Shown here: positions 23,423 through 26,237 of the stretch, piece by piece
Layout of the letters: every line of letters begins with the position of its first letter
Numbering within the stretch: position 1 is the first letter of the stretch
From: Mitosporidium daphniae
Lineage: Eukaryota
Assembly: GCF_000760515.2 (NCBI RefSeq)
Contig: NW_013546467.1
Coordinates: forward strand, 1-43,940
Direction of reading: 5' to 3'
DNA: 43,940 bases
The notes under the pieces: generated by a model
Database searches by the model: none
What the model saw: the letters and a program-made list of their open reading frames with translations, nothing else
Told to the model about the DNA's origin: nothing
Translations under genes and position numbers: made by a program

Positions 23423-26237
23423 TTAGCTATTGTAAAGATCCCCATCAATTGAACTAGCTTCCAATTCTCCTGCATCAGTGGCAGAGGAATTGTCCCCAAA
23501 CGCACTTGAGGCGAACGAAAAGGAGGATTCATAACCACGGGACTGTTGCAATGTTTGTGCAAAAGACTCGTAGCGGCGAATGTCAGTGTCGCTAACGGAA
23601 CGACGGGCAAATTTGAGAGCTTCCTCAAAGTGCGCACGCGTGATTTCTGGGACAAGGTCCTCTACTTCGCCCAGGTCCATCATTTGGGCATTGGGCTCCA
23701 TAACTTGCATGGCCTGGTCCATATCGTCACCTTGTTGTGTCTCTACGACCTTGGCCTGCTTTGTTGCGGCAGCAAGCTCGGCCTCTATGGAGGCACGAAT
23801 GGCAAGCTTGCATGCACGCTGGCAGATTTCGGTGAGATCGGCGCCAGAAAACCCTGAAGCCCATTTTGCGATTGCATTAAGATCGATGTCTGCGGAAAGG
23901 GGCGATTTTCGAAGTGTCGCCTTGAGAATGGCCAGCCTTGATGGTTCGTCTGGAAGTGGGATGTATATCAGCTGATCAAGGCGACCTGGACGTAGGAGCG
24001 CAGGATCGATGTGATCGGGACGGTTGGTGGCGCCAATGACAAAGACGTTCTTTTTGGCCGCCATGCCATCCATCTCGGTCAGCAGTTGATTTAGCACACG
24101 GTCAGCAACGCCCGAATCGCCCATGGATGATCCGCGCGCCTTTGCAATGGAGTCCAATTCGTCAAAGAAAAGCACACAAGGTGAAGCTGCTCGCGCCTTG
24201 TCAAATATTTCACGCACATTTGCTTCGGACTCGCCGAACCACATTGTCAGCAGCTCCGGGCCCTGTGATCTTAAAAATACGAAATCGATACCTAGAATTA
24301 ATGTGCGAAACTTTGTACCTTGACCGAAATAAAGTTGGCCTGGCACTCGTTGGCAATGGCCTTCGCGAGGAGCGTCTTACCGCATCCTGGAGGCCCATAA
24401 AAAAGCACGCCTTTTGAGGGTGACATGCCGAATTTGAGGAACTTTTCCGGGTGCTCCACTGGATACTGTACGGTCTCCTGCAATTCGCGCTTGACTTTTT
24501 CTAGCCCTCCGATGTCTGCCCATTTGATGGTAGGCACCTCAACAACGGTCTCCCGCAGTGCTGATGGATTGGAGGCGCCCATGGCAAACTAGAAAAGTAA
24601 ACATACGACGATATGCACGCACCCTAAAGTTTTCCATGGTCACTGCAAGCGAATTAAGCACCTCGGCGTCGATCTTGTCATCTTCGAGGTCGATGAGCTG
24701 CATTTTTTCTCTGATTTGCTGCATGGCTGCTTCTGAGCAAAGCGATGCGAGATCTGAGCCCACATATCCATGTGTCTCTGCCGCAATCTGCTCCAGGTCT
24801 ACGCCTGGAGCCAGCTTCATGTTTTTCGTGTGAATACGCAGCACATCCAAGCGGCCAGATGGATCCGGAATGCCAATATCGATCTCGCGATCAAAACGAC
24901 CAAACCGGCGCAATGCTGGATCAATAGAGTTGGGGCGGTTGGTAGCGGCGATAACGACGACGTTTGAACGGCTCTTCATGCCGTCCATCAACGTCAAAAG
25001 CTGTGAAACTACTCGGCGTTCAACCTCTCCATTTGTCTAGACGAAAGGTAAAGTCGATCGAAAAATATGGGACAGAAAAGGAAAGGGCAAATCGGACACA
25101 AAAAGAAAGGGGAAAGCTAGGCGCACCTTTTCACGCTTCGGTGCGATCGAATCAATCTCGTCGATAAAGATAATCGCGGGTGCATTTTTATCTGCCTCCT
25201 CGAATGCCTTCCGAAGATTGGACTCGGACTCACCGGCCATCTTGGACATCACCTCAGGCCCGTTAATGAGGAAGAAAAAGGCGCCCGTTTCGTTGGCCAC
25301 TGCACGCGCAATCAGCGTTTTTCCCGTTCCAGGCGGTCCAAAAAGCAAAATGCCTATGGTGAATAAAACGACACTGTACCTCTTGGCGGCTTGATGCCGA
25401 TACTCTTAAAGAGTTGTGGGTGGCGCAGGGGCAGCTCGACGAGCTCGCGGATTTGGGCCATCTGTTTACGGCAACCACCGACGTCATCATACCCGATTTC
25501 GTTCAGATTGCTCTCCTCGTCCTCGCGTTTGATCGGAGAACCTTCAAAATGGATCACGGTCTCCGGAGCTACGATGGCCGTAGGCGATGGTTGGCAATCG
25601 ACAACCTTGAATTCCACAGCACGCATGCCGCCGCGAACCAAAAAATAATCATGCAGACGGATGGGGCGATATGCGTCCAGGAAATATGGCTTCAAAAATA
25701 CATCAAAGATGTTTCCAGTGACACCTTCCAATGTATCGTCGATAGGAAGGACATGGATGCTCGTGGCATATTTGATGTCCGAATGAATTTGCACACTGAC
25801 GATGTCGCCCAATTTGACGCGGATGTTCTTCCTTGTCACTAAAATCTAAATGCTCAAATTACCTAAGTGTTGTTAATGGAGTCATATTTACCCTTGTTGA
25901 GCTGGATGCGGATGTCGGCGCAGCCTTCTTCGGAGAGTACCACGGCAACCGTGTCCTTTCGACGCCTCCCTTTGATCAGAATGGTGTCTCCGCGGAAGAA
26001 CTGCAGCTCCTCCATCTTTTTTGGCGACATGTACACAATTGAAGAGTCATCAGAGCTGGATTCGTCAACGAGAAGCTTGTTCGGAGACGCTTTGCCTTGC
26101 AAGATTGCCGTAGAAAGGTCACTTGCAAAAGATTAGCTGATAAGTAATTCCTACTCTTTGCCCGACTTCGATGGGTCAACGACGATCTTGTGGGCATCAG
26201 CGATCGGTGATGCAACTTGACTGGGTGGTGGCGACAT
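23423..26237 (-). CDS. CDC48: AAA+ ATPase Cdc48/p97/VCP, 7 coding exons
   Basis: [65 protein letters not shown]. Introns 26122-26154, 25839-25891, 25354-25379, 25037-25126, 24589-24622, 24263-24318. Confidence 0.97.
24263..24318 (-). other. Tandem micro-intron pair (27+29 nt) with zero-length exon in CDC48
   Basis: AAG|gtacaaagtttcgcacattaattctag|gtatcgatttcgtatttttaagatcacag|GGC. Removal restores NFISVK-GPELL. Confidence 0.7.
25839..25891 (-). other. Tandem micro-intron pair (29+24 nt) with zero-length exon in CDC48
   Basis: AAGG|gtaaatatgactccattaacaacacttag|gtaatttgagcatttagattttag|TG. Removal restores [15 protein letters not shown]. Confidence 0.65.

What the first reader, a model, noticed from the sequence alone, without database searches (positions are those of the whole stretch)
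25839..25891. Second independent tandem micro-intron pair in CDC48 (29+24 nt)
Seen: the 53-nt intron between LNK and [12 protein letters not shown] is gtaaatatgactccattaacaacacttag|gtaatttgagcatttagattttag. It has two strong GTAA donors, a branch-like ATTAAC in the first unit, and again a TAG|GT junction with no exon. The halves are not copies of each other or of pair 1. Retaining the 24-nt half leaves an in-frame TAG. Both introns of 50-60 nt that I found in the window have this architecture, which argues against chance (inference, n=2).
Basis: partly seen in the sequence, partly recalled or inferred. Interest (0 to 1): 0.82.

Follow-up and report, generated by a model that had tools for sequence, protein, structure and literature searches.

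The report
Two abutting mini-introns in CDC48
In a fungus-like parasite whose introns are mostly 22-35 bases long, the CDC48 gene has a 53-base interruption that is missing from spliced transcript assemblies and is built like two normal-sized introns (29 + 24 bases) with no exon between them, so it is likely cut out in two steps, a miniature of the stepwise splicing known from much longer introns.

Summary
The 53-nt intron (25891-25839, minus strand) is real: assembled contigs from 2 of 8 runs laid skip exactly these 53 bases. It has an inner TAG|GT giving 29+24 nt, and the 56-nt intron of the same gene gives 27+29. Both halves match the modal intron size (32 of 37 modelled introns are 22-35 nt). 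Shuffles give such a split in 1-4% (53 nt) and 2-7% (56 nt) of cases. The inner donor is as strong as ordinary donors; the inner acceptor is weak. No residues are lost, the halves are not detectable copies, and no hairpin hides the junction. Best reading (0.62): two sequential ordinary splicing reactions at a zero-nucleotide exon. This is not shown: no half-spliced form was seen, and only contigs were available. A 90-nt intron without an inner AG|GT is also spliced, so there is no hard length cap. The organism is probably Mitosporidium daphniae. Recursive splicing is known in fungi with far larger units (210+165 nt). The scan noted the same architecture before on other DNA (Rozella; unchecked notes). 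New variant of a known kind.

The parts
25839..25891 (-). CDC48 intron 2, 53 nt, phase 1, GT-AG; compound of two abutting units
   Evidence: skipped exactly (25838 to 25892, CT..AC on +) in one contig of X19 and one of X18
25863..25891 (-). 5' unit, 29 nt: strong donor, branch-like TTAAC, weak TAG acceptor
   Evidence: Donor 62nd, acceptor 3rd percentile of 32 single introns; separate excision inferred
25839..25862 (-). 3' unit, 24 nt: strong donor GTAATT, strong acceptor; looks like an ordinary modal intron
   Evidence: Donor 66th, acceptor 56th percentile; separate excision inferred
25861..25864 (-). Inner AG|GT junction (candidate zero-nucleotide exon); the only inner GT of the intron
24263..24318 (-). 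CDC48 intron 6, 56 nt, same architecture (27 nt 24318-24292 + 29 nt 24291-24263)
   Evidence: skipped whole in the X18 contig; inner acceptor 88th, inner donor 44th, outer acceptor 3rd percentile
25037..25126 (-). CDC48 intron 4, 90 nt, no AG between base 10 and its end and no inner AG|GT: internal control, a long single intron
   Evidence: Skipped whole in X18; a 24-nt insertion allele in X16; period-24 self-similarity
23423..26237 (-). CDC48/p97 gene, 7 exons, 840 aa, introns of 33, 53, 26, 90, 34, 56 nt
   Evidence: Pfam CDC48_N, CDC48_2, AAA on single exons; all six introns absent from the X18 contig

Best explanation
The 53-nt CDC48 intron consists of two abutting intron-sized units (29 + 24 nt) joined at TAG|GT, and it is likely removed by two successive ordinary U2-spliceosome reactions at a zero-nucleotide exon. 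Shown: the anatomy, and loss of all 53 nt from spliced contigs. Inferred: this organism pairs a donor with the first usable AG about 22 or more bases downstream, so the outer donor would pair with the inner TAG (29 nt), which rebuilds a good donor at the exon end, and the inner donor would pair with the outer AG (24 nt). The two units share the junction bases, so they would be handled one after the other. Either order gives the same mRNA; 5'-first is slightly favoured (about 55:45, inference) because the weak inner acceptor scores better while GT follows it (3.6 against 0.0 bits). The two steps are likely forced by splice-site choice, not by a length cap. Origin unresolved: no residues were lost and no duplication is detectable.
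For: (1) All 53 nt are skipped in contigs of X19 and X18. (2) 32 of 37 modelled introns are 22-35 nt, median 26; two such introns sum to 48-62 nt (5-95%), and 53 and 56 fall there. (3) Both introns of 37-69 nt have the split; shuffles give it in 1-4% and 2-7%, and a split scoring as well as observed in 0.4-0.7% and 0.05-0.1%. (4) The inner donor scores 6.8 bits (single introns 5.0 +/- 2.2); the best inner GT of the 70-, 90- and 199-nt introns scores 3.7, 0.4 and 3.8, and those at modal distance from the acceptor -0.5 and -0.2. (5) In 32 of 32 short introns the acceptor is the first AG ending 22 or more nt from the donor, and the 70- and 90-nt introns have no AG in that zone: 0 seen against about 4.4-5.6 expected (my sum). 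A one-step route must pass three AGs (29, 39, 46); in the two-unit reading those at 39 and 46 lie under 22 nt from the inner donor. (6) No hairpin masks the junction (z +0.9). (7) The mechanism is documented in fungi.
Against: No half-spliced joint was seen in any of the 8 runs laid; only 2 gave a spliced contig across this intron, and contigs drop rare forms. The inner acceptor is at the 3rd percentile of single introns. A 90-nt intron is spliced whole, so 53 nt is within reach of one step. The first-AG rule has exceptions: the modelled 199-nt Argonaute intron passes AAG 51, TAG 63 and TAG 195 (not RNA-checked, no significant fold); the 3' unit of the 56-nt pair passes an AAG exactly 22 nt from its donor that scores above its real acceptor (5.6 against 2.3); with a cut-off of 20 or 21 one short intron breaks the rule. 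The cut-off of 22 came from the data and 31 of the 37 introns are model-based. In human introns under 1,000 nt with recursive lariats, conventional lariats were preferred (PMC10156609, passage). n = 2, both in one gene.
Confidence: 0.62

Rival explanations
1. The compound structure is real in origin (an old duplication or second insertion at a splice junction), but today the intron is cut in one step from the outer donor to the outer acceptor and the inner junction is a decaying relic.
For: Weak inner acceptor (3rd percentile); only full-length joints seen; long introns are spliced (90 nt); the 90-nt intron grows by 24-nt tandem units, so short duplications occur here.
Against: The halves have lost all detectable similarity yet the inner TAG|GTAA is intact in both pairs, which suggests selection on it; an unused 6.8-bit donor 24 nt before a strong acceptor has no counterpart in the three long single introns.
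Confidence: 0.23
2. Both are ordinary single introns and the inner AG|GT is a coincidence.
For: Per-intron chance is 1-7%; the pattern was picked after the fact from many windows; n = 2.
Against: At least 2 of the 3 eligible introns (53, 56, 70 nt) by chance is about 0.001-0.003 (my arithmetic); introns here avoid inner AGs.
Confidence: 0.09
3. The inner junction serves regulation: partial splicing makes stop-containing CDC48 transcripts for decay, alongside a one-step productive route.
For: Every partial product is truncated (109-151 aa for this intron, 567 aa for the 56-nt one); both cases lie in one gene.
Against: Truncation follows from frame and composition alone; no partial form was seen.
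Confidence: 0.06

Closest known systems
Zero-nucleotide-exon recursive splicing in fungi: C. neoformans BOT1 intron, 375 nt = 210 + 165 (bioRxiv 10.1101/224170, passages); S. pombe SPNCRNA.445 intron, 336 nt (10.1101/226894, passages)
   Same: A 3' splice site directly followed by a 5' splice site inside one intervening sequence; the whole is absent from mature RNA.
   Different: Units here are 24-29 nt, about six times smaller and equal to the organism's modal intron; two cases in one protein gene; intermediates were shown there and are not shown here.
Recursive (znRS / ratchet) sites of long animal introns (review PMC13149111, passages; 'abutting U2 introns' in PMC6616335, passages)
   Same: AG|GU relay with no exon.
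   Different: There the host introns are long; here the whole is 53 nt and each unit could be defined directly as an intron, so the order need not be 5'-first.
Fungal stwintrons (PMC6616335, PMC7138796; passages)
   Same: Complex intervening sequence of two short U2 units removed by consecutive reactions under intron definition.
   Different: In stwintrons one intron is nested inside a splice element of the other; here the units are side by side and neither signal is interrupted.
Abutting mini-intron chains noted by this scan in Rozella allomycis (AI notes, unchecked)
   Same: Double- or multiple-length introns made of ~27-nt units joined at AG|GT.
   Different: Here spliced contigs show full removal, the halves are not copies, and long single introns without AG|GT (70, 90 nt) exist, so a strict length limit does not apply to this genome.

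Membership tests
Zero-nucleotide-exon recursive splicing (abutting U2 introns) | Inner 3' splice site directly followed by a 5' splice site (AG|GU) | tested here: met
   TAG|GTAATT after base 29
Zero-nucleotide-exon recursive splicing (abutting U2 introns) | Whole segment absent from mature RNA, nothing of the inner site kept | tested here: met
   Exact 53-nt skip in contigs of X19 and X18; run types are guesses by the tool
Zero-nucleotide-exon recursive splicing (abutting U2 introns) | Each segment has its own working donor, branch site and acceptor | tested here: inconclusive
   Both donors and the outer acceptor at the 56th-66th percentile, inner acceptor at the 3rd; branch-like motifs present but degenerate in all introns here
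Zero-nucleotide-exon recursive splicing (abutting U2 introns) | Half-spliced intermediates or segment-sized lariats exist | tested here: inconclusive
   None in 8 runs, but all were contigs and only 2 held a spliced form across this intron
Zero-nucleotide-exon recursive splicing (abutting U2 introns) | Inner site conserved in related species | not testable with these tools
   0 of 80 related loci had an intron at this place (76 uninterrupted, 4 not covered); the one tiny-intron relative, L030, starts just after it
Stwintron | Internal intron interrupts the donor, branch or acceptor element of an external intron | tested here: not met
   The only inner GT follows a complete TAG; the letters do not fit a [D1,2] or [A2,3] reading, and a nested unit from the inner GT to TAG 46 would be 17 nt, under the shortest intron seen (22) (read from the sequence)
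Skipped or lost microexon between two introns | Residues missing against homologues at the junction | tested here: not met
   Offset 0 in 76 of 80 loci, 4 not covered
Tandemly duplicated intron | Halves more alike than unrelated introns | tested here: not met
   71-338 of 496 unrelated pairs score as high in 12 scoring schemes; letter shuffles gave p about 0.04 for this pair and 0.27 for the 56-nt pair; an old duplication is not excluded

The most novel reading that the evidence does not exclude
Tiny-intron relatives of microsporidia (Mitosporidium, and by unchecked notes Rozella) routinely build longer introns as chains of modal-size units removed one at a time, because their spliceosome takes the first AG past a minimum distance: a long intron must be either free of AG or broken at AG|GT relays. 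This would be recursive splicing at the physical lower limit of intron size, as a genome-wide rule.
Probability: 0.4. Interest if true: 0.75.

Novelty: new variant of a known kind. Interest (0 to 1): 0.52.

Why it matters
Recursive splicing is known from long introns and, in fungi, from two or three cases with units of over 150 nt. Units of 24-29 nt would be near the smallest size a spliceosome handles, and would show that zero-nucleotide exons arise from splice-site choice and not only from intron length. The gene gives a built-in test: two compound introns, one long AG-free single intron and three short ones in one transcript. It also bears on how introns lengthen or multiply in compact parasite genomes, and annotation would count such pairs as one intron.

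Tried and rejected
No whole genome is held, so no genome-wide length histogram. No RNA holder was listed on record; X19 and X20 are guessed RNA, X18 is guessed DNA but gave an intron-free contig. X20 did not cover either pair; X13-X17 gave unspliced contigs or no cover. Seven of 44 modelled introns were dropped before counting (37, 120, 229, 24, 24, 36, 183 nt: gene fusions, antisense calls, or introns inside an open frame); none is 44-72 nt. Tandem duplication of the intron looked plausible by eye but failed against unrelated intron pairs. Hairpin masking rejected; the long fold of the 199-nt intron is not significant (z 0.07). Rfam found no intronic RNA family, only U2. A hard length cap rejected (90-nt intron spliced). 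Microexon loss and stwintron readings rejected. The 80 related CDC48 loci were at most 75% identical and mostly intron-free, 10 of 80 with signs of inserts; none of the introns found in the 8 loci aligned in detail had a modal-modal AG|GT split. No database search was made with the full spliced CDC48 protein. Two papers (PMC4829276; an id recalled for the M. daphniae genome paper) were not held, so published intron statistics for this species were not seen. Supplements were not read; those of the two bioRxiv preprints are closed and may list further, shorter recursive cases.

Full report
Observation. The minus strand from 26237 to 23423 encodes an 840-aa CDC48/p97 once six GT-AG introns of 33, 53, 26, 90, 34 and 56 nt are removed (Pfam CDC48_N, CDC48_2 and AAA on single exons). 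The 56-nt intron (24318-24263) divides into 27 and 29 nt in the same way. Any partial product truncates the protein (109, 113 or 151 aa for this intron).

Organism. No whole genome is held. Imp4 from the window had no non-self hit above 66% identity over its full length among the 120 listed, mostly early-diverging fungi. A member of the 90%-identity cluster of another window protein is labelled Mitosporidium daphniae (P0126), and four holders of the DNA are invertebrate metagenomes. I take the organism to be that species or a very close relative (inference).

Is it spliced? Of 24 runs listed none is on record as RNA. I laid 8 of them, all as contigs. A 488-nt contig of X19 (guessed RNA) skips exactly the 53 nt. 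A 2020-nt contig of X18 (guessed DNA) skips the 53-, 56-, 90- and 34-nt introns, lacks the 26-nt one, and ends in 16 letters of exon 1, so all six introns are gone; 24 of the 26 differences listed for X18 are synonymous. I read it as cDNA of a strain about 1% diverged; a processed gene copy is not excluded, but would also derive from fully spliced RNA. No joint of 29, 24 or 27 nt appeared. Contigs drop rare forms, so this says little about intermediates.

Intron context. A gene model trained on the window's long reading frames gave 44 introns; I dropped 7 as fusions, antisense calls or calls inside open frames, leaving 37, of which 6 are RNA-supported. 32 are 22-35 nt (median 26); the others are 53, 56, 70, 90 and 199 nt. 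The model's length prior favours 20-36 nt, which can inflate the short class. Two short introns sum to 53.7 nt on average (5-95%: 48-62). Both double-length introns carry the split, and the three longer ones have no inner AG|GT.

Chance. A YAG|GT with both parts 22-36 nt arose in 1.0% and 1.7% of 200,000 interior shuffles; any AG|GT split in 2.0%, 3.4% and 0.9% (53, 56, 70 nt; 100,000 mononucleotide shuffles) or 3.9%, 7.5% and 0.3% (20,000 dinucleotide-preserving shuffles). At least two of three is then about 0.001-0.003 (my arithmetic). The pattern was chosen after the fact.

Signals. Against the 32 single introns, the inner donor is at the 66th percentile, the outer donor at the 62nd, the outer acceptor at the 56th and the inner acceptor at the 3rd; for the 56-nt pair the inner acceptor is at the 88th and the outer at the 3rd. 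The 24-nt unit is therefore an unremarkable intron in its own right, while the 29-nt unit has a poor end. The long single introns have no comparable inner donor. In 32 of 32 short introns the acceptor is the first AG ending 22 or more bases from the donor, and the 70- and 90-nt introns have no AG from base 22 to their end: 0 seen against roughly 4.4-5.6 expected (my sum). Exceptions: the unverified 199-nt intron, an AAG 22 nt into the 3' unit of the 56-nt pair, and one short intron if the cut-off is 20 or 21. Neither compound intron folds better than shuffles. The window's U2 snRNA (17035-17224) has the usual GTAGTA branch-pairing sequence (motif recalled).

Mechanism. Most likely (0.62) the outer donor pairs with the inner TAG and the inner donor with the outer AG in two successive reactions. 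After removal of the 29-nt unit the rebuilt donor scores 7.0 bits; after removal of the 24-nt unit the remaining acceptor scores 0.0, about the lowest among single introns, which mildly favours 5'-first. These steps are inferred. A length cap is not the reason: the 90-nt intron is spliced whole, X16 carries it 24 nt longer, and a long intron of 152 bp is reported for S23 of M. daphniae (PMC6349667, passages). The simpler rule that fits most of the window is that a long intron either avoids AG or is divided at AG|GT. Rivals: a real but unused relic (0.23), coincidence (0.09), regulated partial splicing (0.06).

Origin. No residue is missing at either junction (offset 0 in 76 of 80 and 73 of 80 loci), so no microexon was lost. 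The halves are not more alike than unrelated introns, though a letter shuffle gave p about 0.04 for this pair. None of 80 loci showed an intron at this place, but they were distant (at most 75% identity) and mostly intron-free. L030, an organism with 25-27-nt introns at the places of window introns 3 and 4, begins just after this site. Origin stays open.

Comparison. It works like, and has the anatomy of, zero-nucleotide-exon recursive splicing; membership needs the intermediates, which are untested in effect. Fungal precedents are the 375-nt C. neoformans BOT1 intron (210 + 165; 10.1101/224170, passages) and the 336-nt S. pombe SPNCRNA.445 intron (10.1101/226894, passages). It is not a stwintron (PMC6616335, PMC7138796; passages). 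Ten searches (listings only unless stated) showed no paper on abutting units under 30 nt or on such introns in Mitosporidium or Rozella; PMC13685798 (passages) has no occurrence of 'recursive'. The library lacks most subscription journals. The scan's own notes describe the same architecture in Rozella and others; they are unchecked and are not counted as support.

Verdict. Real feature, new variant of a known kind, two-step removal likely but not shown. Interest 0.52.

Noticed in passing
window 17035-17224 (+): U2 spliceosomal RNA gene, 137 bits, full model length; branch-pairing sequence looks canonical although intron branch sites are degenerate.
   Followed up: partly
window 25037-25126 (-): 90-nt pyrimidine-rich CDC48 intron with period-24 self-similarity; X16 has a further 24-nt copy. 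Introns here can lengthen by AG-free tandem units.
   Followed up: partly
window 36545-36743 (-): Modelled 199-nt intron in an Argonaute gene (PAZ, Piwi) that passes three AGs; no Rfam hit, no significant fold; not RNA-checked.
   Followed up: partly
window 18036-18105 (-): Modelled 70-nt intron in a primase large-subunit-like gene (name recalled) with no AG between base 8 and its end.
   Followed up: partly
L030 1-1180: CDC48 fragment of another tiny-intron organism (25, 26, 27 nt introns), sharing the places of window introns 3 and 4 and apparently 5; a candidate relative for comparing the two pairs if a longer contig exists.
   Followed up: partly
window 26410-26480: 24-nt tandem repeat upstream of CDC48 with 3 copies here, 2 in X15 and 1 in X14.
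   Followed up: no
window 23250-23370: About three 30-nt tandem copies between the ends of the eIF4G-like gene (name recalled) and CDC48 (seen).
   Followed up: no
window, 32 short introns: The exon after the intron begins with GT in 7 of 32 and the exon before ends in AG in 13 of 32, so AG|GT is common at ordinary borders and short duplications over a border could create abutting pairs.
   Followed up: partly
window 24263-24291 (-): An AAG 22 nt after the inner donor of the 56-nt pair scores above the real acceptor; a candidate minor splice site.
   Followed up: no
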